DNA of 64,000 nt. It comes from Syntrophales bacterium. GTDB taxonomy: Bacteria > Desulfobacterota > Syntrophia > Syntrophales > UBA2210. Below, in pieces: positions 19,898 to 30,631 of this stretch. The stretch covers positions 320,001 to 384,000 of the forward strand of contig CAXXKT010000001.1 in the NCBI GenBank assembly GCA_963662405.2, read 5' to 3'. Positions within the stretch are counted from its first letter, which is position 1. Every line of letters starts with the position of its first letter. The translations under genes and the position numbers were made by a program. The notes under the pieces were generated by a model. That model saw nothing but the letters and a program-made list of their open reading frames with translations, was not told where the DNA came from and did not search any database.

Positions 19898-20575
19898 CTA
19901 CCAGAATTTCCAGAACTTCCTTTCAGGGGGTGGCTTCCTCGCGAAGTCAGGACCATCAGGAAGGCTGGAGAGGGTTTCACCAACAATCTGTCGAACAGCC
20001 GGTTCATACGCCTGGTACGCCTTCAGTTCCAATCTCTTTTTGGTAAAATCATAATGCCTGTCGACCACGCTCTCCTGCGAACTCCATAAGGTGATCCCTG
20101 TATCAGCATCTTTCAATTCGAGAGCGACGGCAACCGTTGTCGGCGCGTAAACACTGATAAACGAAGTTTTCCACTCGAGGAGACGAGGATACAGGATGGC
20201 ATCGACCCCCAGAGATTCCCCGATAACCGTCGGAGGAAGAGCATCCATGCCTTCACCGATCCTTTTACCACAATCGACAGTCAGTTTTTCGTCTATTATA
20301 TCGAGCGGTATTCGAGGATATCCCTTGAAATAAAGCGCATCAAGAATTGTTTTCCGCAGCAGCTTGGCTGCCTCTACATCGTTTGTCTTGTTCTCGACCG
20401 GTGCCAGGGCGACAAGACGGACCCCTCTCTGTTCATAATCGGGCACAATCGTATGAGTAACTCCGGGGGCACATCCCGATAAGCCGTAGGCCATAAGACA
20501 GAGCACGAAACCTGCCTTGAGATTATTTATCAAAACTGCTTTCTCCTTATTCCATATTGAATTCCAACGTATCAT
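19898..20575 (-). CDS. DUF799/GNA1162-like lipoprotein
   Basis: Lipobox LSGC; VALAPVEN...LGVDAILY...TGITLW. Confidence 0.7.
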   Translation of the reverse strand: MIRWNSIWNKEKAVLINNLKAGFVLCLMAYGLSGCAPGVTHTIVPDYEQRGVRLVALAPVENKTNDVEAAKLLRKTILDALYFKGYPRIPLDIIDEKLTVDCGKRIGEGMDALPPTVIGESLGVDAILYPRLLEWKTSFISVYAPTTVAVALELKDADTGITLWSSQESVVDRHYDFTKKRLELKAYQAYEPAVRQIVGETLSSLPDGPDFARKPPPERKFWKFW

Positions 20576-21245
20576 GCGTCATACGAATCAGAGCGAGAGA
20601 AAAATCTCTGAATCCCGTCAGCTGGAGTTCCTTGGCAAGCACAGATGCATCTCCCTGCATCTCGATATCCAATTGGGCAACACCCGATCCTATCCTCGGC
20701 AGGGACACGGCATGTACTCCCCGGGTATCGTTTTCCAACACTTCCCTCAAAACCTTGAAATCACGACAGCGTTCTATACCCCGGACGGTAACACTAACAA
20801 TCGTTCTCGCAGACGACACCTGCCACCGCCCCGCGAAGATACCCAGGAATTCAAGGTCTCGCCGTATGTCCAACAGCGACAGGGTGGCGAGCATCCTGAT
20901 ACGGTAACGCCCGTTTTTTATGCCTTCCTGCAGGATCCGGTAATCACGGATATAATCCTGATGTTTCGAGTAGACAGCGACGTCGAGGATATCAACATTT
21001 TCCGACACAACCTCTTCGGGAATCAGCATCTCGACCACCTGTTCCACGGCCCCTCGCATCGAGTCACGTATCGCTTCCTCCCTCGCCGACAGCTCGTCTT
21101 TTCCGTACACGATACTGATACCCTCGGCCTCGATAACCCTGACAACCTCTTGGTTTGACTCTACATATCCCGGATACAGGAGAAAGAAACACAGGATCGC
21201 GGAAAAGATGTAACAACATACGTTTTTTACAAACATATCCCTCAT
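20547..21245 (-). CDS. Exported protein with FlgT N-terminal-like domain
   Basis: Hydrophobic N-terminus; IEAEG...AREEAIRDSMRGAVEQ. Confidence 0.55.
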   Translation of the reverse strand: MRDMFVKNVCCYIFSAILCFFLLYPGYVESNQEVVRVIEAEGISIVYGKDELSAREEAIRDSMRGAVEQVVEMLIPEEVVSENVDILDVAVYSKHQDYIRDYRILQEGIKNGRYRIRMLATLSLLDIRRDLEFLGIFAGRWQVSSARTIVSVTVRGIERCRDFKVLREVLENDTRGVHAVSLPRIGSGVAQLDIEMQGDASVLAKELQLTGFRDFSLALIRMTHDTLEFNME

Positions 21246-21262
21246 ATCACCAAGCCCGTCAC

Positions 21263-21550
21263 TTACCGACCCGGAGCTTTCTTCAGTTGCTCGACTTCTT
21301 CCCGTATGATCTTTTCAGCAATGGAGGGAAACATCTCCCTGGCGATCCTCTCCGCGATCTTTGTAACAATGCCTGCAATCTCATCTTCTAAGTTATCCGC
21401 CAACGGCACTGCCTCAATCTTTTCTTCTACAACATCAACAAGATCATAGATCTTGTAGTCCCCCGGTGCTGTCTCGTTTTTTTCTTCTACAACATCAAGG
21501 AGATCATAAATCTTCTGATCCTCCGGCACCGCACCCATATCCTCATCCAT
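21263..21550 (-). CDS. Small acidic protein with tandem KIYDLxDVVEEK repeat and RomR-C-like tail
   Basis: 60-bp-period direct repeat at 21421/21481; C-terminal IAREMFPSIAEKIIREEVEQLK. Confidence 0.7.
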   Translation of the reverse strand: MDEDMGAVPEDQKIYDLLDVVEEKNETAPGDYKIYDLVDVVEEKIEAVPLADNLEDEIAGIVTKIAERIAREMFPSIAEKIIREEVEQLKKAPGR

Positions 21551-21688
21551 ACAGCACCCCCGCTGTCTGATGTCACTGCGCCTTTTGTTTTAACAGGTTG
21601 AAAACCGGGCAAACACCGGCATATGCATTTGCACGCTACCACACAGGAACAAACACTTCAAGGATTTTACCCCGTGGCCTTCAGAGAT

Positions 21689-21720
21689 AAAAACGGCCGG
21701 GAGATCTGACTCCCGGCCGC
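21689..21720 (-). terminator. Intrinsic terminator ending the atpE-Cache transcript
   Basis: cggccgggag-tcagat-ctcccggccg-TTTTT on the minus strand. Confidence 0.8.
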
Positions 21721-21793
21721 TTCATTCTTCCCGTTGAGAAGACACAGACCACCTGAGGAGCGTTCCCCGAGTCAGTGTTCCTCAACCATTCTG

Positions 21794-23092
21794 TTAATCT
21801 TCGTCATCGTAATAGTGCGGTTCAGCCCCCGCAGGAACTTCCGCCTCGATCGAACGGGTGATCCCCTTCGAAAGCAGGGCGGAAATCAGGAAGAGGATAA
21901 ATACCGCGATGACAAGTATCAGGATGATGGTCCTCATCCAGGCATGCGCTTCCTTCTCAATTGCCTGTGCGGTCGCTAATGCCGCTTCGTTAAACTTGTC
22001 GACATCCAAACCCATGCCGACCCAGCCGAACCCTGCAGGTTCAGGGTACGAAACCGACTTGAACGGTATCGGTGCATAGGCGACAAACTTGGTGTGACCG
22101 CCAAAGGTATACTTCCGGCTTCCCGCATGTCCCGCAGCCGCATCCTTCGCAACCTCCGGAAGAGCAGGATCCATATACCCCAGATGGAAGAGATTCAGGA
22201 CCTCTTCACCTTTCTTCTTCATATTTTCAGCTGTTTCTTCGGTGAGGGGCGAAACGGGGGTCCCGTCACGGTAGAGCCCCGCTATATGGAAATCATCGGG
22301 GTGTGAGATCATCATTCCCCGATTGTCAACCACATAAGCATACTCACCTGTCGATGAATCCGCCTCAAGCACGGAAACTGCCTGAGTTGGTATGATATTA
22401 TCCGTAAATTTAGCAAGTTGTCGTACATCAAGAGCAAGGGTTATAAGCCCTGTGAATCCCTGCTTATCAAACAGAGGCGTCGCGAATCGAACGATACCCT
22501 CAAACCGTTTTCCCTTTTCAAAGTCAGCCCGATTCACATACCAACCGGTGACAGGGGACACGTAGACATCGCCCTTGCCAAGATTCTTTGTCTGTGCAAA
22601 GTAATCTTCTGACTTATAGGTCGTATCTTCGGGATTACTGATATTGCCCAGCCCGGACGCCGGAGCGATTTCCCCGTCGACGATCTTGATAACCTCATTA
22701 CCCGCCTCGTCTATCAGGGCCATTTCGACATACAGAGGCTCGGAAGATTTTACAATCTCTCCGCCTTTTTTAATCCAGAGATCTTGTCTGTTCTTTTGCA
22801 CGAATTCTCTGTACGTCTCGGCATCCGCCGTTAGAATTGTCGCTATCAGTGTATCTTTCTCACACTCCCGCAGGAAAGACGCAACATTATCGGCTACGGC
22901 AACAGCGCGGTTCATGATCTCTTCTTGCGCCTTCTGGTCAAGGACAGCCGCCGCCCCTTTCTTTGACGTGTCCCCCAACTGAAAAATGCCGTTGGCTATC
23001 AGAAAAGACGTCAGCAATAAGGGGATTACGATAAGCAGAAAAAATACCCTTGATACGGTGAAAAACTGCTTACCCTTTGTAGTTTCTGACAT
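21794..23092 (-). CDS. Membrane-anchored dCache sensor protein with no cytoplasmic output domain
   Basis: Two TM helices flanking Cache motifs (YFAQTK..GDVYVS, YAYVVDNRGMMISHP, FVAYAPI); only ~24 aa after TM2. Confidence 0.8.
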   Translation of the reverse strand: MSETTKGKQFFTVSRVFFLLIVIPLLLTSFLIANGIFQLGDTSKKGAAAVLDQKAQEEIMNRAVAVADNVASFLRECEKDTLIATILTADAETYREFVQKNRQDLWIKKGGEIVKSSEPLYVEMALIDEAGNEVIKIVDGEIAPASGLGNISNPEDTTYKSEDYFAQTKNLGKGDVYVSPVTGWYVNRADFEKGKRFEGIVRFATPLFDKQGFTGLITLALDVRQLAKFTDNIIPTQAVSVLEADSSTGEYAYVVDNRGMMISHPDDFHIAGLYRDGTPVSPLTEETAENMKKKGEEVLNLFHLGYMDPALPEVAKDAAAGHAGSRKYTFGGHTKFVAYAPIPFKSVSYPEPAGFGWVGMGLDVDKFNEAALATAQAIEKEAHAWMRTIILILVIAVFILFLISALLSKGITRSIEAEVPAGAEPHYYDDED

Positions 23093-23144
23093 TTCTATCT
23101 CCCCCTGACTTTTGTTAATTTTGAAGTTAGTTGCTCAGAGCCGA

Positions 23145-23522
23145 TTAACCCCAAAGGAAACTCGTGTAAGGGTTTGCATAGAGAAGAACAAGCGAAACGA
23201 CAAGGGCGTAAATAGCAATCGATTCCGCCATAGCCATACCAACCAGCATTGTCATCATGATCTTTCCCTGAACGCCGGGATTCCTTCCGACAGCGCTACA
23301 GGCCCCATTCGCGGCATTACCGATACCGGCACCCGCCCCGATCGCCCCGAGACCGATCGCCAGACCGGATCCCAGCATCGCGCCGACGGCAAAGATAACC
23401 TTTATCCAGGATCCTCCCTCATCCGGAAGAGCCTCAGCAGCAAACACCACCGGCGAAGACACCAACAGGGCCGCCGTTACCATCAGCAGAGCTGATAACC
23501 ATTTTACTGTCCTTCTTACCAT
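23145..23522 (-). CDS. atpE: F0 ATP synthase subunit c with signal-peptide-like N-terminal extension
   Basis: GAIGAGAGIG, RNP loop, AESIAIY, LLYANP; AAAGGAG SD. Confidence 0.96.
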   Translation of the reverse strand: MVRRTVKWLSALLMVTAALLVSSPVVFAAEALPDEGGSWIKVIFAVGAMLGSGLAIGLGAIGAGAGIGNAANGACSAVGRNPGVQGKIMMTMLVGMAMAESIAIYALVVSLVLLYANPYTSFLWG

Positions 23523-23616
23523 TTCTTTTTTCTCCTTTCCTCACTGATGCTTTTTATCTGTACGTACCGTACAAAAGTTTCTCAAGCATGACTGTTTTCG
23601 AAACCGCCCAAGCTGC

Positions 23617-23632
23617 TGCAACAGACATGCCA
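23617..23632 (-). promoter_or_regulatory. sigma54 (-24/-12) promoter of atpE
   Basis: TGGCATGTCTGTTGCA versus consensus TGGCACG-N4-TTGCW, 95 bp upstream of the ATG. Confidence 0.8.
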
Positions 23633-23732
23633 CGCATCCCCCTATCCTCATGATTAATTCTAAGGCACCAACATTACAAACTATATAATATATACCCTCA
23701 TGCGGTACCGGCCGGCCTCCCACCTCTTTCCG

Positions 23733-23779
23733 TTTAACATTTCATTCAACCAACCAAGTGGATTGAACAAAAGATGAAA
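23733..23779. promoter_or_regulatory. Candidate enhancer (UAS) for the sigma54 activator
   Basis: Imperfect inverted repeat TTTAACATTTCATTCAA...TTGAACAAAAGATGAAA, 100-150 bp upstream of the sigma54 site. Confidence 0.4.
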
Positions 23780-23917
23780 CGCTCACGGGGGACATGCCGA
23801 TCCACCAACACCCACTTATTATCTTTCTTCTAGCGTTCCATGCGAGTAAAGTCAATACACAACAGATATAAACGGGTATTTGCCGATCTCGCACCCCTTC
23901 ATTTTTCATGATTTTTA

Positions 23918-23946
23918 TTGAAAATTGGCTTTCAGGACTGTAGTAT
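23918..23946 (+). promoter_or_regulatory. sigma70 promoter of the two-component operon
   Basis: TTGAAA-N17-TAGTAT. Confidence 0.55.
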
Positions 23947-24011
23947 CGAAGTGCTGTAGCGTCGTGTGGACCTGTTTACAATTTGCTCCGACTACCACAG
24001 GGGGGAAAACG

Positions 24012-24206
24012 ATGCAGGAGATACTGACCGTGATAACCTATCTGGTTGTCTGGTTGATCTGCAAAGAAGTGCTCGGCATTCAGAGTGGGCTTGTCACCCT
24101 TATTATTTCTCTCGGCGCAGCTGTAGGCATTTACATACTGTCTGCGGTCAAAGGGGGGGGGGACAAAAAAAATCTACCAGACGATAATGGACACCATGGA
24201 GACTGA
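24012..24206 (+). CDS. Small two-TM membrane protein overlapping the kinase start
   Basis: MQEILTVITYLVVWLICKEVLGIQSGLVTLIISLGAAVGIYILSAV; G-rich SD. Confidence 0.6.
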   Translation: MQEILTVITYLVVWLICKEVLGIQSGLVTLIISLGAAVGIYILSAVKGGGDKKNLPDDNGHHGD

Positions 24207-26925
24207 CAAAGGCCCCAGATCGTTTCAGACTACACCAAAAATCCCCATATGGCTGACCACGGTAGCCGTTATTGTATTTATTCTTCTCTTGGCACTCACC
24301 GTCAATCAAGCCCGTGAAAAGGATATCGTCGAACAGTTCAGCCGTCAGCAGATGGCGATCGCCAGAGGAAGGGCGACGGGGATAGAGGATTTCATTTCAG
24401 GCATTGAAAAGAGTTTGATCCTTATTTCCCGGCTGCCGTACGTCAGGGGAACAACACCGGAAGCCACCGGGCAGGGCATTAAGATTATCTATAAAGACCT
24501 CGGGAAGATGGATTTTATAGAAATGCCGTACATCAAAGGGACCATGGATGAGGTGGTCACGCAGAGCATCAAGGTCGTCTACGACGACCTCGCCGGGAAG
24601 GTGGATTTCATAGCATTAGAAGATCTCAACGGGGTGATCGGCGTCGGATACCCCCCTCCCATCCTTGACCGGATACGGGGGAAAGGCCTCGCATCCCGGC
24701 CATATTTTCCGGAAATACAAAAAACGGGTAAGCCCTATATCGGTGCCATTCCACTGTTGGCAGCCAAAAAGACGGCCGGGACAAACGGTGACAGGCCTCA
24801 TTCGGTCATCGTTGCCGTCCCTACCTATGATTCGAGAAACAGTTTTTCCGGCACGGTAATTGCCATCCTCTCTTTATCCACCATCATCGATCGCTATATC
24901 CTGTCCCGGAATGAAACATCATGCTGTTCATGGGTTATGGATAGTAACGGCATCATCCTTGCGCACCCCGACCCGGCCCTCACCGGGCAAAGTGTGGCGG
25001 TTATGGAAACCACAATTGAAACGGGAGGATCACTGAAAGCCATCTTCGAGGAGAAAAAGGCGGGATACGGGGAATATTGGCTCACCGGAAACGGGGGGAA
25101 ACCGGAAAAGTTCATTATAGCTTACGCCCCGGTTGAGCTGAATACCAGATATTGGATGGTTGCGGTCACCGCCCCGTATAATGAAATCGTGCTCCTGGCT
25201 CGGAAGGGCTTTTCGAATATCATGCTGGGCGCCTTGGGGCTCATCATCGTTGTGATCGTTTCGGGCATGGTAATCGCTGTTACCAATACGCGGCGCTTGC
25301 GCCTCAAGGAGGAATTGAAGCGGCTGAAGGAACGAGAGGAATGGCAGGAAAAGCTGCTCATTGAACACAGGAAAACGGAGGGGGTAATCGAAGGGTCACC
25401 GATACCCACCTTCGTGCTGAACAGAGAACACCGTGTCATTCTTTGGAACAAGGCGTGTGCGGAACTGACAGGCATTGATGCCAAAGATATGATCGGTACG
25501 GATCGCCACTCCTTCCCGCTTTACAAGAGCAAGAGGCCCACGATTGCAGATGTTATTATCGACACCGATATGGATGCCCTCAAAAAATACTATGAGACCA
25601 AAGATGTTCGGGAGTCGAAAACGGTCAAGGGGGCCTATGAGGCAACGGACTTTTTCCGTGATGTCGGAGGTAAGCCCCGGCACCTGTATTTTCTGGCATC
25701 GCCGATATACGATGAATGGGGAGAGGTCATCGCGGCTATCGAGACCATACAGGACACAACCCATCAGAAAGAAATGGATATCAAGCTGGAAGAATACGCT
25801 GAAAGCCTCCAGGACGAGTTGGCCGAGAATATCGATCTCCGGCAAAAAGTAGAAAAACTATTCAACTACCTCCAATCCATCATCGACAGTCTTCCCGACA
25901 AGATATTCGATCTCAGCAAAGACGGGGTCATCAATTATGTGAGCCATGACGTCAAGCATGATGGGGGTATCGGTATCATCTCCAAGAAATTCGGGGGAAA
26001 GCATTTCGCCGACTTTGTCGACGAGGAAAACAGACAGTTTGTCCTCGATATATGGGAATATGCCAAAAAGGGCATCTACAATCCTTATGAGATGACGGTA
26101 ACTGCTCGGGACGGATCGAGGCGAAATCTGCTGATAAGGCCCTATCCGGTCACGGGAACCGATCGATTGATCCTCGTTCAGAGAGATATTACGGAGTTCA
26201 AGGCCTTGGAGAAGAAATTCTACGAGAGCCAAAAGCTTGCCGCCATCGGCCAGCTGTCGGCCGGGATCGCCCATGAGGTACGAAATCCCCTCTCCTCGAT
26301 CAAGATGAGCCTCCAGATACTCGAAAAACGGATGCTCCCGGCAGGGAATGACCTGAAACGCTTTGAAATTGCACGGAGAGAGGTCGAGCACCTGGAAAAA
26401 CTCGTCAACGACATCTTGATCTATGCGAAACCGTCCGATCCCGTCAAGAAACGATCCGACCTCCGGCAGATTATTGATCACGCCCTTGCACTGACCGAGA
26501 AATCCCTGGAGGACAAGCACATCCACGTGGAGACCTTCTTTGCACACGACCTTTCCCCCCTGGATGTCGATCCGGCGATGCTGGAACAGGCCTTCATCAA
26601 CATTTATCACAACGCCATCGACGCGATGGAGGAACGCGGAACGCTCGCGATATCCGCTCGACAGGAGAACAGCCAAATCAGGGTGGAGATCAGGGATGAC
26701 GGGTGCGGAATCTCAACGGAAGATCTTCCCTATATCTTCAATCCCTTCTTCACGAAAAAGAGTTCCGGCACCGGGCTGGGACTTGCTCAGATCAAAAAGA
26801 TCATCGACCAGCATCAGGGTACGGTAGAGATATCGAGTGAAGAGGCGAAGGGAACCAGCGTCATTATCACCTTATCGGCGCAAACAGGCGAGGAAGAACA
26901 ACAGGCACCCACCAGGATTTCTTGA
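24187..26925 (+). CDS. Sensor histidine kinase (TM-dCache-TM-PAS-PAS-HisKA-HATPase)
   Basis: AGIAHEVRNPL H-box; NAIDA; DDGCGI; FNPFFT; GTGLGL. Confidence 0.96.
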   Translation: MDTMETDKGPRSFQTTPKIPIWLTTVAVIVFILLLALTVNQAREKDIVEQFSRQQMAIARGRATGIEDFISGIEKSLILISRLPYVRGTTPEATGQGIKIIYKDLGKMDFIEMPYIKGTMDEVVTQSIKVVYDDLAGKVDFIALEDLNGVIGVGYPPPILDRIRGKGLASRPYFPEIQKTGKPYIGAIPLLAAKKTAGTNGDRPHSVIVAVPTYDSRNSFSGTVIAILSLSTIIDRYILSRNETSCCSWVMDSNGIILAHPDPALTGQSVAVMETTIETGGSLKAIFEEKKAGYGEYWLTGNGGKPEKFIIAYAPVELNTRYWMVAVTAPYNEIVLLARKGFSNIMLGALGLIIVVIVSGMVIAVTNTRRLRLKEELKRLKEREEWQEKLLIEHRKTEGVIEGSPIPTFVLNREHRVILWNKACAELTGIDAKDMIGTDRHSFPLYKSKRPTIADVIIDTDMDALKKYYETKDVRESKTVKGAYEATDFFRDVGGKPRHLYFLASPIYDEWGEVIAAIETIQDTTHQKEMDIKLEEYAESLQDELAENIDLRQKVEKLFNYLQSIIDSLPDKIFDLSKDGVINYVSHDVKHDGGIGIISKKFGGKHFADFVDEENRQFVLDIWEYAKKGIYNPYEMTVTARDGSRRNLLIRPYPVTGTDRLILVQRDITEFKALEKKFYESQKLAAIGQLSAGIAHEVRNPLSSIKMSLQILEKRMLPAGNDLKRFEIARREVEHLEKLVNDILIYAKPSDPVKKRSDLRQIIDHALALTEKSLEDKHIHVETFFAHDLSPLDVDPAMLEQAFINIYHNAIDAMEERGTLAISARQENSQIRVEIRDDGCGISTEDLPYIFNPFFTKKSSGTGLGLAQIKKIIDQHQGTVEISSEEAKGTSVIITLSAQTGEEEQQAPTRIS

Positions 26926-26991
26926 TACGTCTGTGGCAATTGGGGAATCGATCCGCACGGGGCTTCCAACAGAGGGGGAAATACACACGCT

Positions 26992-28362
26992 ATGGCGAAA
27001 ATTCTTGTCATTGATGACGATAAATCGATCCGTGAAAGTCTTGAACTCTATCTGGAAGAAGAGGGGTATAACGTGCACACGGCTCCCACCGGGACGGAAG
27101 GCCTGAATCAATTTGTGAGAGCACTGCCGGATGTGGTGATCCTCGATATCCGACTCCCCGACATAGACGGCTTCACCGTTCTCGAGGACCTGCGCGAAGA
27201 GGATGAGAAGATCAAGGTGATTATGATTACCGCCCACCATGATATGGAAACTACCATCAAGGCGATGAAGGGGGGTGCCTTCGACTATATTCACAAACCC
27301 ATCAACGTCGATGAACTGGACATCGCCATCAAGAAGGCGCTGGGCTCGATTGAGATGGAAAAGAAGATCAGCGGACTTCTCATGGAACACCACCGCGATT
27401 TCAAGGTGGGCGATATTATCGGGACAGGTAACAAGATGAAAGAGGTATTCAAGACCATCGGGGTTGTCTCACAGAGCCAAACAACCGTCCTGATACAGGG
27501 AGAAAGCGGCACCGGAAAGGAACTCATCGCCAAGTGTATCCACTACAACACCTCACGGGACGAGCCCTACATAGCCATTAACTGCTCAGCTATCGTGGAG
27601 ACCCTCCTGGAATCTGAGCTGTTCGGTCACGAAAAAGGCTCCTTCACGGGTGCGATAGCGAGGAAACAGGGAAAATTCGAGCTTGCCCGATACGGCACGG
27701 TGTTCCTGGACGAGATCAGCGAGATGTCCGTGAACCTCCAGGCCAAACTTCTCCGCGTCCTTCAGGAAATGGAGTTCGAGAGGGTCGGAGGGAAAGACCG
27801 GGTCAAGGTGAATGCGCGGATCATAACCGCAACCAATAAAAATCTCAAACAGATGGTCCAGGAGGGGACATTCAGAGACGACCTCTTCTACCGCCTGAAC
27901 ATCGTATCAATCCAACTCCCCCCCCTCAGGGAGCGGCAGGAGGACATTCCACTCCTCGTTGAATACCTGATCAGCAAGGCAAATAGAGAACTCCACAAAC
28001 AGGTCATCGGTGTTTCGGATGAGATGATGGAGATCTTCGACCGATACAGCTGGCCGGGGAATATCAGAGAGCTGGAAAACATCCTGGTCCGCGCTGTCGT
28101 TGTCGCAAAGGGGCAGGTCCTCGGCAGGGAGGACTTCCCGGATTTGATGGAAGAGAAAAATGCCAAGAAAACGTCCGATACGATCGACGATGATGAACCG
28201 GGGAAGATCCTGACCCTCGATGAGGTCGAGGAGCGGCACATACGGAAGGTCATCCGGGGAACCAACAAAAACAAGGGGGAGATCTGTGAAATCCTGGGGA
28301 TATCCCGTCCCACTTTTGAACGAAAACTGGAAAAATACGATATTATCTTCGAAAGAGAATAA
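26992..28362 (+). CDS. sigma54-dependent response regulator (NtrC/AtoC-like REC-AAA-Fis HTH)
   Basis: VIDDD/LDIRLPD; GESGTGKE; HEKGSFTGA; FLDEI; WPGNIREL; LGISRPT. Confidence 0.97.
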   Translation: MAKILVIDDDKSIRESLELYLEEEGYNVHTAPTGTEGLNQFVRALPDVVILDIRLPDIDGFTVLEDLREEDEKIKVIMITAHHDMETTIKAMKGGAFDYIHKPINVDELDIAIKKALGSIEMEKKISGLLMEHHRDFKVGDIIGTGNKMKEVFKTIGVVSQSQTTVLIQGESGTGKELIAKCIHYNTSRDEPYIAINCSAIVETLLESELFGHEKGSFTGAIARKQGKFELARYGTVFLDEISEMSVNLQAKLLRVLQEMEFERVGGKDRVKVNARIITATNKNLKQMVQEGTFRDDLFYRLNIVSIQLPPLRERQEDIPLLVEYLISKANRELHKQVIGVSDEMMEIFDRYSWPGNIRELENILVRAVVVAKGQVLGREDFPDLMEEKNAKKTSDTIDDDEPGKILTLDEVEERHIRKVIRGTNKNKGEICEILGISRPTFERKLEKYDIIFERE

Positions 28363-28406
28363 GGACGATCACGCAGCAACCCTCATCGGTAACCCCAACT
28401 ACACGC

Positions 28407-28437
28407 AAAAGGCCCTGACGGATCTGTCAGGGCCTTT
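28407..28437. terminator. Bidirectional terminator between the regulator and atpB
   Basis: aaaggccctgac-ggatct-gtcagggccttt. Confidence 0.85.
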
Positions 28438-28471
28438 CCATTCGGCATAGATAATTCTCTTTGGCTCTGGA

Positions 28472-29125
28472 CTAGTGCGATTCCTCCATCGCCAGCTGTA
28501 TGTAAATCATCGACAGCATGACAAAGACCAGGGTCTGGATGATCGAGGTAAAAATCATCAGCACGAAGATCGGCAGGGGAACGAGAAAGGGAACCAAGAG
28601 CAGAACGATTGCCAGGACCAAGTCCTCGCCCATGATATTCCCGAAGAGACGCACGGAGAGAGAAATCGGACGCGCGAGGTGACTGACAAGCTCAATGGGG
28701 AGCATAATGGGGGTCATCCACCAGACGGGGCCCATGAACTGCTTGACATATTTGAAACCGTGCAGCCAGATTCCCACGATGTGGGTCAAGACAAAAACCA
28801 CCAAGGCCATGGATACGGTGGTATTGAGATTGGCTGTGGGTGACTCGAATCCGGGGATAAGACCGAGCAGGTTGGCCGTGAGAATAAAGATGGCAATAGT
28901 CGCGATCAAAGGGAAAAACTTGAGACCGGCCGACCCCATGGCATCAAGCATCAGGTCCTTGACACCCCCCAAGACCACCTCGAAGACATGCTGTAATTTT
29001 CCGGGATATATACTGAGCTTCCGTGTCGCAAGGAAAGCAAGAACAGCCAAAATTACCATGATGAGCCACGTGTACGTGACGTGAGCCGGAAGCGGAATCT
29101 TCTCAAGAAATAAAAAGGGATGCAT
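28472..29125 (-). CDS. atpB: F0 ATP synthase subunit a
   Basis: [32 protein letters not shown]. Confidence 0.97.
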
Positions 29126-29522
29126 TGTTCTTTTTAAACCTCCTCAATGGGTTTTTCACATTGGCGCCAACAACCGTAATGACGACACTGATCACGACTA
29201 CAGAAAGTCCGAGTACAAGGCCAAAGACGTCAACCGGTACCTGGGTTATGACAACAAACAGCACAACACCCGTAATGATAAGCCGCAGATAATATTTCAT
29301 CACCATAAAGGGTTTCGCCCGCTCGGCGTGTTTTAGCAAAGAACTCCTCAAGTCTCTGGCAAGCCAGTAAAAATTGACAATACTGATAATGCCTCCGATA
29401 CATACCCCTCCGGCAAATCTGACCGACAGGAAGAGAATGCTGAGGGCAGCGAGTACTCCGAGCGTCACCCAGTTTCCTATTTCAACCTTTCGCTGCAGGA
29501 TCGTTTTTTTTATATCCGTCAC
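29103..29522 (-). CDS. atpI: ATP synthase protein I
   Basis: Four TM helices, [12 protein letters not shown]...YYLRL; directly before atpB. Confidence 0.88.
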
Positions 29523-29772
29523 CAGTTTTGCCCTTTACGGGACGAGGCTCCTCATCGGGGAAGGTGCTTTTGATAAAGAGATAAAAATTCCTGAAACCGG
29601 CGGCAACACCTACCACCAAAAGCAGGGGAGTAAAGATGTTGCTGGTTCCCACCTTTTTGTCAAGGTAAACCCCGAGCATGAGGCAGCCAAAGATAGCGAT
29701 CACCATGGCAAGGCCGAGGCTCGCCGCATATCCCATCTGAAAGAACACTCTCTTCTTGTTGGCATCATGCAT
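29482..29772 (-). CDS. AtpZ/AtpI-family (ATPase gene 1) protein
   Basis: GLAMVIAIFGCLMLGVYLDKK...GVAAGFRN. Confidence 0.88.
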   Translation of the reverse strand: MHDANKKRVFFQMGYAASLGLAMVIAIFGCLMLGVYLDKKVGTSNIFTPLLLVVGVAAGFRNFYLFIKSTFPDEEPRPVKGKTGDGYKKNDPAAKG

Positions 29773-29822
29773 CGCCGGACCGCCTATAGCATACTGGTTA
29801 TGTGAAGTCAATAGGGGAAAAC

Positions 29823-30269
29823 CTACACACCGAACCGCGCATCGACTTTAAACCTTCGTTTGACCGGCATACTGACGATATCGGTTATCCCCGTCTCTTC
29901 CGAGATACAAGAGATCGCCTTCTGAATTTCTTCTCCGGTTGACCCGATGAAGGTAAACCAGATGTTATAACCATGGTCCCTCAGATAATGATGGGTAACT
30001 CCTTTGTACGCATTGACGATCGCCACAAATCTCTCCAATTGTCTTTCAGGAACTCTCGCGGCACAGAGCGTACTCACAAAACCGAGCTTGGCCGTATCAA
30101 AAACGCCCCCGATCCTGCGGATAACCCCCCGCTCCTTGAGCGCCCTGATTCGCTCCAAGACAAGATCCTCTTCGACCGATAGCCGTTCAGCCAAGAGGCT
30201 GAACGGTTCAACGTCAAGGGGAAACTCGTGCTGCAGCATATTGAGGATGTCTCTGTCTATCGTATCCAT
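29823..30269 (-). CDS. ahbA: Siroheme decarboxylase alpha-like (AhbA/NirDL, AsnC fold)
   Basis: MDTIDRDILNMLQHEFPL..EPF...GVIRRIG...LGFVSTLCAARV...GVTHHYLR..YNIWFT. Confidence 0.8.
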   Translation of the reverse strand: MDTIDRDILNMLQHEFPLDVEPFSLLAERLSVEEDLVLERIRALKERGVIRRIGGVFDTAKLGFVSTLCAARVPERQLERFVAIVNAYKGVTHHYLRDHGYNIWFTFIGSTGEEIQKAISCISEETGITDIVSMPVKRRFKVDARFGV

Positions 30270-30349
30270 CCGTGACCTGGTTTCCTGTGCACATACCGAT
30301 TCAGGCATCCACTCTTTCTAAACCCGTCACCGGCTGCATGATCGCGGAA

Positions 30350-30631
30350 TTACTCCACGGTGATTATATCTTTGTTGGCCTGATACGTCTTCGGTCCGAT
30401 GCCTCTGACCTTCATGATGTCTTCCGCCTTTGCAAAAGGACCGTTGGCTTCCCTGTATTGGACGATCCGCTCAGCATACCGAGGGCCTATCCTCTTGAGT
30501 TTGATAAGCTCTTCAACCGGTGCGGTATTGATATTGATCCTTCCCCCCTCGTCAGCCAGGGCTATCGGAACCACCGACAGCATAAACAGCGCAGCAACAA
30601 ACATGACAAATACCTTGCGATATCTTTTCAT
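30350..30631 (-). CDS. comEA: ComEA-like helix-hairpin-helix DNA-binding protein
   Basis: Signal peptide; ININTA...GPRYAERIVQYR...VRGIGPK. Confidence 0.88.
   Translation of the reverse strand: MKRYRKVFVMFVAALFMLSVVPIALADEGGRININTAPVEELIKLKRIGPRYAERIVQYREANGPFAKAEDIMKVRGIGPKTYQANKDIITVE

What the first reader, a model, noticed from the sequence alone, without database searches (positions are those of the whole stretch)
21794..29772. ATP synthase c-subunit gene detached from its operon and apparently placed under a dedicated sigma54 two-component system
Seen: atpZ-atpI-atpB ends at a terminator (28407-28437). atpE lies ~5 kb downstream on the same strand, beyond an oppositely oriented small membrane protein, Cache/PAS histidine kinase and sigma54 enhancer-binding regulator. 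atpE has its own near-consensus -24/-12 promoter (TGGCATGTCTGTTGCA, 23617-23632). Known: atpE normally follows atpB directly, and sigma54 promoters need an activator that is often encoded next door. Inference: an extracytoplasmic signal controls c-ring supply separately from subunit a. This could be an on/off switch for F0, or, if a second atpE exists, a swap of c-rings with different ion/ATP ratios in an energy-limited anaerobe. I know of no described system like this.
Basis: partly seen in the sequence, partly recalled or inferred. Interest (0 to 1): 0.88.

Follow-up and report, generated by a model that had tools for sequence, protein, structure and literature searches.

The report
Sensor-controlled second ATP synthase rotor gene
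In a whole order of energy-starved anaerobic bacteria, one of two genes for the rotor-ring protein of the ATP synthase sits, with a sensor-like membrane protein, behind a switch-type promoter next to its own signal-sensing regulator pair, which suggests that these cells adjust the rotor of their ATP machine in response to a signal.

Summary
atpZ-atpI-atpB ends at a strong hairpin. A small membrane protein, a dCache/PAS histidine kinase and a sigma54 activator lie on the other strand. A c-subunit gene (atpE1) follows with an exact -24/-12 motif.

The framing changes. This is not a local insertion but a five-gene module conserved across Syntrophales: small protein-kinase-regulator, divergent from atpE1 plus a 432-aa Cache membrane protein.
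- atpE1 precedes the Cache gene in 74 of 74 related loci.
- The sigma54 motif is present in 73 of 73.
- A palindromic upstream site about 125 bp before it is conserved and is unique in this genome.

The genome has one atpB, one atpG and rpoN, and a second F-type c gene (atpE2, 50% identical) 1.1 Mb away. atpE2-type genes lack the motif (0 of 22).

Elsewhere in the phylum, atpE follows atpB directly (23 of 24 loci) without the motif.

The regulatory link is therefore well supported by comparison. What it does to the enzyme is inference: exchanging or mixing c-rings, or setting enzyme level.

One family (f21) has only the atpE1 type, still with motif and regulator but without kinase or Cache protein. 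That argues against a pure swap. No expression data were available, and six paper searches found no description.

The parts
29482..29811 (-). atpZ-like small membrane protein (first gene of atpZ-atpI-atpB)
   Evidence: PF09527, 58.3 bits
29103..29522 (-). atpI
   Evidence: PF03899, 60.2 bits
28472..29125 (-). atpB (Fo subunit a), the only copy in the genome
   Evidence: PF00119, 175.9 bits; one match in the whole genome
28407..28437 (.). G+C-rich hairpin between the convergent atpB and regulator genes; likely two-way terminator
   Evidence: Sequence; fold with 12-bp stem followed by UUUUG; not listed by the consensus scan
26992..28362 (+). sigma54 enhancer-binding response regulator (REC, AAA+, HTH_8; loop reads GSFTGA)
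   Evidence: Pfam. 73-84% identical across the order. Best NCBIfam model is AtoC, 486.8 bits, below its cut-off of 714
24187..26925 (+). sensor histidine kinase: two membrane helices around a dCache_1 domain, then PAS, HisKA, HATPase_c
   Evidence: Pfam; orthologs in 61 of 61 related loci with enough flank
24012..24206 (+). small membrane protein (about 64 aa from the ATG at 24012; longest ORF starts at 23925); overlaps the kinase start by 20 bases
   Evidence: ORF; no Pfam or NCBIfam family; conserved and divergent from atpE1 in 67 of 70 loci
23918..23946 (+). sigma70-like promoter of the small protein-kinase-regulator operon (TTGAAA, 17 bases, TAGTAT)
   Evidence: Scan, 9 of 12; lies in a conserved block of the intergenic alignment
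23732..23780 (-). upstream activator site: palindrome TTTTGTTCAAT-N11-GTTGAATGAAA with flanking GTTAAA, centred about 125 bp before the -24 element
   Evidence: Conserved in the alignment of 74 upstream regions; only such site in the 3.8-Mb genome
23617..23632 (-). sigma54 -24/-12 promoter element TGGCATGTCTGTTGCA
   Evidence: conserved upstream of atpE1-type genes; not found before atpE2-type or outgroup c genes
23523..23606 (-). leader of about 85 nt with nested hairpins, ending in the invariant Shine-Dalgarno GAAAGGAG
   Evidence: transcription start inferred, not mapped
23145..23522 (-). atpE1: F-type c subunit, 125 aa, with an N-terminal signal-like extension ending AxA
   Evidence: PF00137; alignments; PDB relatives
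21794..23092 (-). Cache432: membrane protein with two helices around a dCache_1 domain, short acidic tail, no output domain; 52 bases after atpE1
   Evidence: Pfam; alignment A1; follows atpE1 in 74 of 74 loci
21694..21719 (.). G+C-rich palindromic hairpin about 75 bases after the Cache432 stop; possible end of the operon
   Evidence: Scan, listed on the + strand only

Best explanation
The window holds a dedicated regulatory module that is conserved across Syntrophales.

Proposed mechanism:
- A membrane kinase has a periplasmic dCache domain and a cytoplasmic PAS domain. It is made together with a small membrane protein from a sigma70-type promoter.
- The kinase phosphorylates an NtrC-type activator.
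- The activator binds a palindromic site about 125 bp upstream of a -24/-12 promoter. With sigma54 it starts transcription of a two-gene operon.
- The operon encodes atpE1, one of two paralogous Fo c subunits, and Cache432, a sensor-like membrane protein without an output domain.
- The genome has only one a subunit and one F1. The AtpE1 made on this signal therefore enters the same F1Fo as the sigma54-independent paralog AtpE2, as a ring of its own or as a mixed ring. This changes rotor properties or enzyme amount.
- Cache432 most likely feeds back on the kinase or assists the AtpE1 ring.

Shown: the genes, the motifs, their linkage, their conservation and their specificity to the atpE1 type.

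Inferred: activator binding, the transcription start, the signal, the fate of AtpE1 in the enzyme and the role of Cache432.
For: Parts are present. rpoN is present, with one atpB and one atpG. There are two F-type c genes.

Linkage:
- The cassette is present in 16 of 20 loci around atpE1-type genes of the order.
- In 80 loci found through Cache432: atpE1 directly upstream in 74 of 74, small protein in 67 of 70, kinase in 61 of 61, regulator in 54 of 55 where the flank suffices. At least 8 of these contigs are also among the 20.

Promoter:
- The GG-N10-GC motif scores at least 9 of 11 in 17 of 21 regions and in 71 of 73. The rest score 8.
- Controls: atpE2-type 0 of 22 at 9 or more. c genes of other orders: 0 of 24 at 10 or more, one at 9.
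- No sigma70-like site is listed on the atpE1 strand between 23523 and 23924.

Upstream site: the palindrome is conserved and unique in the genome at up to 2 changes per arm.

Natural experiments:
- In G025 the kinase and regulator lie on another contig, yet atpE1-Cache432 keeps the palindrome and motif.
- In family f21 the regulator ortholog (61-65% identical; paralogs at most 51%) lies convergent to atpB. The lone atpE1-type gene still has a palindrome-like site and a motif.

Co-occurrence in 81 order genomes: atpE1 type and Cache432 both present in 51, atpE1 only in 7, Cache432 only in 3 (contig edges), neither in 20 (my cross-tabulation).

AtpE1 is a normal c subunit. It has the helix-2 glutamate, the R-N-P loop and the glycine motif, and it aligns to solved c rings. 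It is the only main c type in f21.
Against: - There are no expression data, no mapped transcription start and no binding data.
- The two paralogs have the same ion-site residues. Both have Glu-Ser in helix 2, Ile or Met at the position of the sodium-binding Gln, and no Thr after Ser. A change of coupling ion is therefore not indicated. Ring size cannot be read from sequence.
- Family f21 has only the atpE1 type, with the motif, and lacks the kinase, Cache432 and the small protein. There the promoter must serve the cell's only main c gene. That fits level control better than a swap.
- Which paralog is ancestral is open. The atpE2 type is a long-branched clade (98/99) inside an unresolved short-branched atpE1 grade (88 columns). 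Yet the atpE2 type keeps the position next to atpB in one family.
- The two Cache domains are only 22% identical over 107 residues, so a shared ligand is not indicated.
Confidence: 0.6

Rival explanations
1. AtpE1 is the main, ancestral-like c subunit. The two-component system sets the amount of ATP synthase by limiting c-subunit supply. AtpE2 is the specialised extra copy, and no ring exchange is involved.
For: - atpE1-type sequences are very conserved with short branches, while the atpE2 type sits on a long stem of 0.83.
- Family f21 has only the atpE1 type, with the motif, a palindrome-like site and the regulator next to atpB.
- There is no ion-site difference between the paralogs.
Against: - About 51 of 81 order genomes keep both paralogs (my reading). 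Twenty lack the atpE1 type and Cache432 altogether and presumably live on the atpE2 type alone. In those lineages atpE2 is sufficient.
- A constant partner gene, Cache432, is not explained by level control alone.
Confidence: 0.25
2. AtpE1 and Cache432 form a membrane complex of their own, a c-ring-like pore or sensor unrelated to F1Fo. The kinase and regulator control that complex.
For: - The strict pairing of atpE1 with Cache432, a median of 55 bases apart, in 74 of 74 loci.
- The nearly invariant first membrane helix of Cache432.
- An atpE1-specific invariant Cys75 and the loop R-N-P-G-V-Q.
Against: - In f21 the atpE1 type is the only c gene for the main atpB and F1, and Cache432 was not found there.
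- AtpE1 keeps every c-subunit hallmark.
- The module stays in the neighbourhood of atpZ-atpI-atpB in many genomes, typically 16-22 kb away on the same strand.
Confidence: 0.08
3. The neighbouring regulator acts elsewhere, and the atpE1 promoter is served by another of the many sigma54 activators in the genome, or is not functional.
For: The genome encodes many paralogous activators: 16 matches at E of 1e-80 or less in G000. Regulator and target are unlinked in G025 and f21.
Against: - Divergent linkage holds in 54 of 55 loci.
- A highly conserved regulator (73-84% identical) goes with a conserved palindrome that occurs once in the genome.
- The regulator ortholog is kept next to atpB in f21.
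Confidence: 0.05
4. The arrangement is an assembly artefact or a chance motif.
For: The window motif alone is not significant at one mismatch. The two runs whose contigs span the stretch without a difference may be the source of the assembly.
Against: The same order, atpB - regulator - kinase - small protein - atpE1 - Cache432, is found in G044 and G076. It is also found in 7 of the 80 loci from other assemblies; one of the 7, L049, is the G044 contig again. The motif is conserved in 73 of 73 loci.
Confidence: 0.02

Closest known systems
Acetobacterium woodii-type F1Fo with several atpE genes (hybrid c ring; PDB 4BEM)
   Same: More than one c-subunit gene serves one F-type enzyme. The A. woodii c1 chain is the best solved relative of AtpE1.
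   Different: There the c genes lie in tandem inside the atp operon, and one is a duplicated hairpin lacking one carboxylate (recalled). Here both are single hairpins with the carboxylate, lie apart from atpB and from each other, and only one has its own sigma54 promoter and two-component system.
Alternative complete ATPase sets used under different conditions (Photobacterium profundum, two atp operons; N-ATPase operons)
   Same: A choice between paralogous membrane-rotor parts according to conditions.
   Different: Those are whole second operons, each with its own a subunit and F1. This is known to me only from the search listing and abstract of PMC10054830. G000 has one atpB and one atpG. 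AtpE1 scores below the N-ATPase c model cut-off (66 bits against 130.85).
Mammalian c-subunit genes ATP5G1-3 (recalled, no call)
   Same: Several differently regulated genes for the c subunit, with c supply proposed to limit the amount of enzyme.
   Different: Those are eukaryotic nuclear genes that encode the same mature protein. Here the mature proteins are about 50% identical, and control is by a bacterial two-component system and sigma54.
Divergent sensor/target pairs with a feedback protein: cpxP-cpxRA and pspF-pspABCDE (recalled)
   Same: A regulator operon is divergent from its main target. The target operon encodes a membrane or periplasmic protein that may feed back on the sensor. psp is also sigma54-dependent.
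   Different: Those targets are envelope-stress proteins, not a core bioenergetic subunit. A feedback role for Cache432 is untested.
AtoS-AtoC two-component system
   Same: The best-scoring named models for the kinase and the regulator, with the same domain order in the regulator.
   Different: Both score far below the models' cut-offs (256.5 against 646; 486.8 against 714). The sensor part (dCache) and the target genes differ.

Membership tests
F-type ATP synthase c subunit (PF00137) | Profile match above the curated cut-off | tested here: met
   68.2 bits against a cut-off of 24. TIGR01260 gives 45.1 against 43.95.
F-type ATP synthase c subunit (PF00137) | Helical hairpin with a glycine-rich helix 1, a polar loop R-x-P and the ion-binding carboxylate in helix 2 | tested here: met
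   G57-G68 glycine motif, R80-N81-P82 and E100 are invariant in 13 atpE1 orthologs. The alignment is in register with solved c rings.
F-type ATP synthase c subunit (PF00137) | Assembles into the Fo rotor of an F1Fo complex | not testable with these tools
   Indirect only: it is the sole main c type in family f21.
Sodium-binding c subunit (Ilyobacter tartaricus type) | Gln in helix 1 (13 residues before the loop Arg) and Ser/Thr-Thr after the Glu (recalled motif) | tested here: not met
   Ile (atpE1) or Met/Leu (atpE2) stands at the Gln position. The sequence after it reads Glu-Ser-Ile/Val/Leu.
N-ATPase c subunit (TIGR03322) | Profile match above the cut-off and a place in an N-ATPase operon | tested here: not met
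   66 bits against 130.85. G000 has no second atpB.
Sigma54-dependent promoter | GG at -24 and GC at -12 with fixed spacing, close to TGGCAC-N5-TTGCW | tested here: met
   10 of 11 consensus positions in the window. Conserved in 73 of 73 and 21 of 21 upstream regions at 8 or more.
Sigma54-dependent promoter | rpoN present, and an enhancer-binding protein with an upstream binding site | tested here: met
   rpoN; activator next door; conserved unique palindrome about 125 bp upstream.
Sigma54-dependent promoter | Transcription starts about 12 bases after the GC and depends on rpoN and the activator | not testable with these tools
   No RNA run holds the stretch.
NtrC-family response regulator (enhancer-binding protein) | REC + AAA+ sigma54-interaction domain with a GAFTGA-type loop + Fis-type HTH | tested here: met
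   PF00072, PF00158 and PF02954. The loop reads GSFTGA in the translation.
AtoS/AtoC equivalogs | NCBIfam equivalog score above the cut-off | tested here: not met
   256.5 against 646 and 486.8 against 714.
Hybrid c ring of the A. woodii type | Tandem atpE genes inside the atp operon, one a fused double hairpin | tested here: not met
   Both paralogs are single hairpins of 123-125 aa at separate loci.

The most novel reading that the evidence does not exclude
Syntrophales run one F1Fo with two exchangeable rotor rings. A dedicated kinase/sigma54 pathway senses an external or energy-state signal and installs the AtpE1 ring, alone or mixed with AtpE2. It does so together with a periplasm-facing Cache protein that docks on or matures that ring. 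This would shift the proton-per-ATP gearing or the direction bias of the enzyme between ATP synthesis and ATP-driven proton pumping for reverse electron transport in syntrophic growth.
Probability: 0.25. Interest if true: 0.92.

Novelty: new variant of a known kind. Interest (0 to 1): 0.8.

Why it matters
Syntrophic fatty-acid and aromatic degraders live on the smallest energy quanta known. They use their ATP synthase in both directions. How they tune it is an open question.

This module puts a core rotor subunit under a dedicated signal pathway:
- It is present in 54 of 81 sampled genomes of the order.
- Cache432 relatives were confirmed in 256 stretches of a species-level genome collection.

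It gives a concrete, testable handle on regulated rotor composition or regulated enzyme level: a defined promoter, a defined binding site, two sensor domains open to ligand screening, and two c proteins that can be told apart by mass.

It also shows that in this lineage the textbook atpB-atpE linkage has been given up for both c genes.

Tried and rejected
- Complex prediction of Cache432 with mature AtpE1: no verdict, score 0.01. It says nothing either way.
- Public runs: no RNA holder listed, so expression and transcription start stayed untested.
- Laying contigs (one search failed; worked): two runs of one sample span the stretch with no difference but may be the assembly's source. Contigs from another study are short.
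- Rfam scan of 21500-30500: no match.
- RNAalifold on 30 leaders: no consensus pairs. Single-sequence folds show similar nested hairpins with only moderate z-scores (median -1.35; 12 of 30 below -2).
- Profile of Cache432 against PDB sequences: no match.
- Protein atlas: only generic Cache/MCP sensor clusters.
- Comparison of Cache432 with the kinase's sensor: weak, so a recent common origin was rejected.
- Earlier findings of the scan: none.
- First protein alignment failed because the G007 copy of the Cache gene has stop codons; I left that row out.
- Paper searches found no description of a sigma54- or two-component-controlled atpE, or of atpE paralogs in Syntrophales. One candidate, PMC7894505 (passages read), was irrelevant.
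- Considered and rejected: a sodium/proton difference between the paralogs, N-ATPase membership, misassembly.
Full report
**What is in the window**

On the minus strand lie atpZ-like (29482-29811), atpI (29103-29522) and atpB (28472-29125).

On the plus strand, reading towards atpB, lie three genes. The first is a small membrane protein: its longest ORF is 23925-24206 and its probable start is the ATG at 24012. The second is a 912-aa kinase with dCache_1, PAS, HisKA and HATPase_c (24187-26925). The third is a 456-aa response regulator with REC, the sigma54-interaction AAA+ domain and a Fis-type HTH (26992-28362).

Back on the minus strand follow a 125-aa c subunit (atpE1, 23145-23522) and, 52 bases later, a 432-aa protein with two membrane helices around a dCache_1 domain and no output domain (Cache432, 21794-23092).

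Between the convergent atpB and regulator genes is a 12-bp G+C-rich hairpin followed by UUUUG at 28407-28437. The consensus scan missed it because it asks for five T.

TGGCATGTCTGTTGCA lies at 23617-23632 on the minus strand, about 95 bases before the atpE1 start codon.

**The rest of the genome**

The assembly (3.8 Mb, 3 contigs) has one atpB, one atpG and one rpoN.

It has five matches to the c-subunit family:
- atpE1;
- a second F-type c gene, atpE2, at C1:1451431-1451793 (123 aa, 50% identical), which stands alone beside a NirD/L-like gene and hemL;
- three matches in two V/A-type ATPase loci.

Both F-type c proteins carry an N-terminal signal-like extension ending in AxA.

**The arrangement is order-wide, not local**

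I searched 81 genomes of the order with AtpE1. There are 58 genomes with a match at 65% identity or more (atpE1 type). About 67 have a match in the 41-60% band (atpE2 type). This is my reading of the table; 22 of the atpE2 type were checked by alignment and tree. A third, shorter c type sits next to a second atpB in some genomes and is not found in G000.

Around 20 atpE1-type genes, 16 loci show the same cassette: regulator, kinase and small protein on one strand, and atpE1 and Cache432 divergent from them. The four exceptions are G025 (same genus) and three genomes of family f21.

A scan of a species-level genome collection with a Cache432 alignment confirmed 256 stretches that encode a relative. 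The best 80 carry titles such as Syntrophales, Syntrophaceae, Smithella and Syntrophus sp.. In those 80 loci:
- atpE1 lies directly upstream of Cache432 in 74 of 74 with at least 450 bases of flank (median gap 55 bases);
- the small protein is divergent within 900 bases in 67 of 70;
- the kinase is present in 61 of 61;
- the regulator is present in 54 of 55.

At least 8 of these contigs are the same as in the first 20.

atpB lies next to the regulator only in the window's own family: G044 and G076, and 7 of the 80 loci (one of these is the G044 contig again).

In many other genomes, atpE1 lies 16-22 kb downstream of atpB on the same strand. atpE2 lies 3-8 kb from atpB, mostly divergent from an operon that ends in atpZ-atpI-atpB. 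This held in 13 of 15 regions, but those regions were chosen because both genes share a contig. atpE2 directly follows atpB only in L043, the G022 region of family f22; by coordinates the same holds in G042.

Outside the order, 23 of 24 loci from other orders of the phylum have the textbook atpB-atpE adjacency. One further family (f67) has the cassette.

**The promoter**

I scored the best GG-N10-GC site against the 11 specified positions of TGGCAC-N5-TTGCA.
- In the window plus 20 loci: 13 regions score 10, 4 score 9 and 4 score 8.
- In 73 further loci with enough upstream sequence: 15 score 11, 40 score 10, 16 score 9 and 2 score 8.
- Seven of the 80 loci could not be assessed: four lack the gene at a contig edge and three have under 250 bases upstream.

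With equal base frequencies, a site at 10 or more is expected in about 0.4% of 465-base regions (my arithmetic).

Controls:
- atpE2-type upstream regions: 0 of 22 reach 9, and the best is one 8.
- c genes of other orders: 0 of 24 reach 10, and one reaches 9.
- The whole G000 genome holds only 34 sites at 10 or more.
- No sigma70-like site is listed on the atpE1 strand in the intergenic region.

**The activator site and the other signals**

The alignment of 74 upstream regions shows a conserved palindrome. Its consensus is TTTCGTTCAAT, about ten bases, ATTGAAYGAAA, flanked by GTTAAA-like repeats. It is centred about 125 bp before the -24 element, at 23732-23780 in the window. One subgroup, whose titled members read Smithella or Smithellaceae, has a shorter spacer and keeps the outer arms.

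In G000 this palindrome occurs once, at up to two changes per arm and a spacer of 8-12.

The same alignment shows three further features:
- a conserved block that holds a sigma70-like promoter for the small protein-kinase-regulator operon (TTGAAA, 17 bases, TAGTAT at 23918-23946);
- an A+T-rich stretch between the palindrome and the promoter;
- an invariant Shine-Dalgarno sequence GAAAGGAG.

**Natural experiments**

In G025 the kinase (65% identical) and regulator (84%) lie on another contig. The atpE1-Cache432 pair still keeps the palindrome and the motif.

In family f21 (three complete genomes) no ortholog of the kinase's sensor part, of Cache432 or of atpE2 was found. A clear regulator ortholog (61-65% identical, against at most 51% for paralogs) lies convergent to atpB, as in the window, without a kinase beside it. 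The only main c gene there is of the atpE1 type and stands alone. It has a palindrome-like site and a motif scoring 8 to 10 of 11.

Together these link the regulator, the palindrome, the sigma54 promoter and the atpE1 type as one evolutionary unit. They also tie that unit to the ATP synthase genes.

**Co-occurrence**

Cache432 is found in 54 of 81 order genomes. It was not found in families f9, f11, f14, f18, f21 and f24.

Cross-tabulated:

| atpE1 type | Cache432 | genomes | note |
|---|---|---|---|
| present | present | 51 | |
| present | not found | 7 | four of f21; two at ends of short contigs; G080 |
| not found | present | 3 | genes at contig edges or partial |
| not found | not found | 20 | |

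**The two c proteins**

In a tree of 69 c sequences (88 columns, so many forks are open), all atpE1 and atpE2 types of the order and of f67 form one clade against the other orders (100/100). The atpE2 type is a clade (98/99) on a long stem of 0.83. The atpE1 type is an unresolved, short-branched grade around it.

So the pair arose in this lineage. Which copy is the 'original' is open. Sequence conservation favours atpE1. The position next to atpB in f22 favours atpE2.

Both keep Glu-Ser in helix 2, a hydrophobic residue at the position of the sodium-binding Gln, and no Thr after the Ser. A change of coupling ion is therefore not indicated.

Fixed differences lie in two places. The first is helix 1: G-A-G-A-G-I-G-N-A-A-x-G-A-C in atpE1, with an invariant Cys75, against bulkier residues and G-Q/N-A/G-T/L in atpE2. 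The second is the cytoplasmic loop: R-N-P-G-V-Q against R-N-P-E/D-A-Q. From established knowledge of c rings, these regions set helix packing, and thus ring size, and touch the central stalk. What the differences do here cannot be read from sequence.

**Cache432**

Cache432 is 52-80% identical across the order. Its first membrane helix is nearly invariant (FFLLIVIPL..L..LIA.G). It has an invariant R-S-I..E-V-P stretch after the second helix and an acidic tail.

It has no NCBIfam family, no PDB relative by profile, and only generic Cache neighbours in the atlas. Its similarity to the kinase's Cache domain is weak.

Its role is open. My preferred reading, by analogy with induced accessory proteins of other sensor systems (recalled), is feedback on the kinase. 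The alternative is a role at the AtpE1 ring.

**Reading**

The regulatory architecture is as well supported as comparative genomics allows, and I rate it at about 0.85.

The physiological meaning is inferred. There is one a subunit and one F1, so AtpE1 made on the signal must compete or mix with AtpE2 in the same enzyme, or simply add to the c pool.

The f21 case argues that the sigma54 pathway can also be the normal way to express the only c gene. This weakens a pure swap model.

Six full-text searches found no paper describing this system.

**Limits**

- There are no expression data, and no binding or structural evidence.
- The genome samples are related and not independent.
- Paralog classes outside the 42 sequences (aligned and placed in the tree) rest on identity bands.
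- Absences in draft genomes are 'not found'.

Noticed in passing
window 23523-23606 (-) and the matching leaders in L051-L128: The atpE1 leader (about 75-110 nt) folds in most lineages into a similar nested hairpin. The outer stem differs in sequence between lineages (for example TTTCCCTTCC/GGAAGGGAAA against CCTCTTTTCCG/CGGAAAGAGG), which hints at covariation. RNAalifold on a MAFFT alignment found nothing, and z-scores are moderate.
   Followed up: partly
G000:C1:417987-428772 (L002, L004, L005): There are two V/A-type ATPase loci about 8 kb apart. One has a single-hairpin c/K subunit (126 aa) and one has a double-hairpin c (186-aa frame). This organism therefore has three rotary ATPase membrane sectors besides the two F-type c genes.
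   Followed up: no
window 29823-30308 (-) and L003 2052-2534 (+): NirD/L-like (siroheme decarboxylase-type) genes sit both directly upstream of atpZ and divergent from atpE2. A weak match to the window's copy (23-30% identical) lies divergent next to atpE2 in 14 of 21 related regions. This suggests an old link between alternative haem synthesis genes and the Fo genes in this order.
   Followed up: partly
G007:C1:584613-585911 (L028, L127): In this complete single-contig genome the Cache432 homolog reads with 7 in-frame stops (5 TGA, 1 TAG, 1 TAA), while the atpE1 beside it is intact. An atpE2-type gene lies only about 400 bases beyond it, convergent. This is either a pseudogene or a sequencing error.
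   Followed up: no
other Syntrophales genomes, e.g. G045:C1:447691-448615: A second atpB with a short c gene (about 100 aa, no extension) directly after it is present in many order genomes but not in G000. It is probably a second, N-ATPase-like operon.
   Followed up: no
L077 (2250-5569): In one locus about 3.3 kb is inserted between the small-protein gene and atpE1. The palindrome region and motif stay next to atpE1.
   Followed up: no
window 19898-21550 (-): Downstream of Cache432 lie a 95-aa acidic protein, a FlgT_N-like 232-aa protein and a GNA1162-like lipoprotein. They are syntenic only within the window's own family.
   Followed up: no
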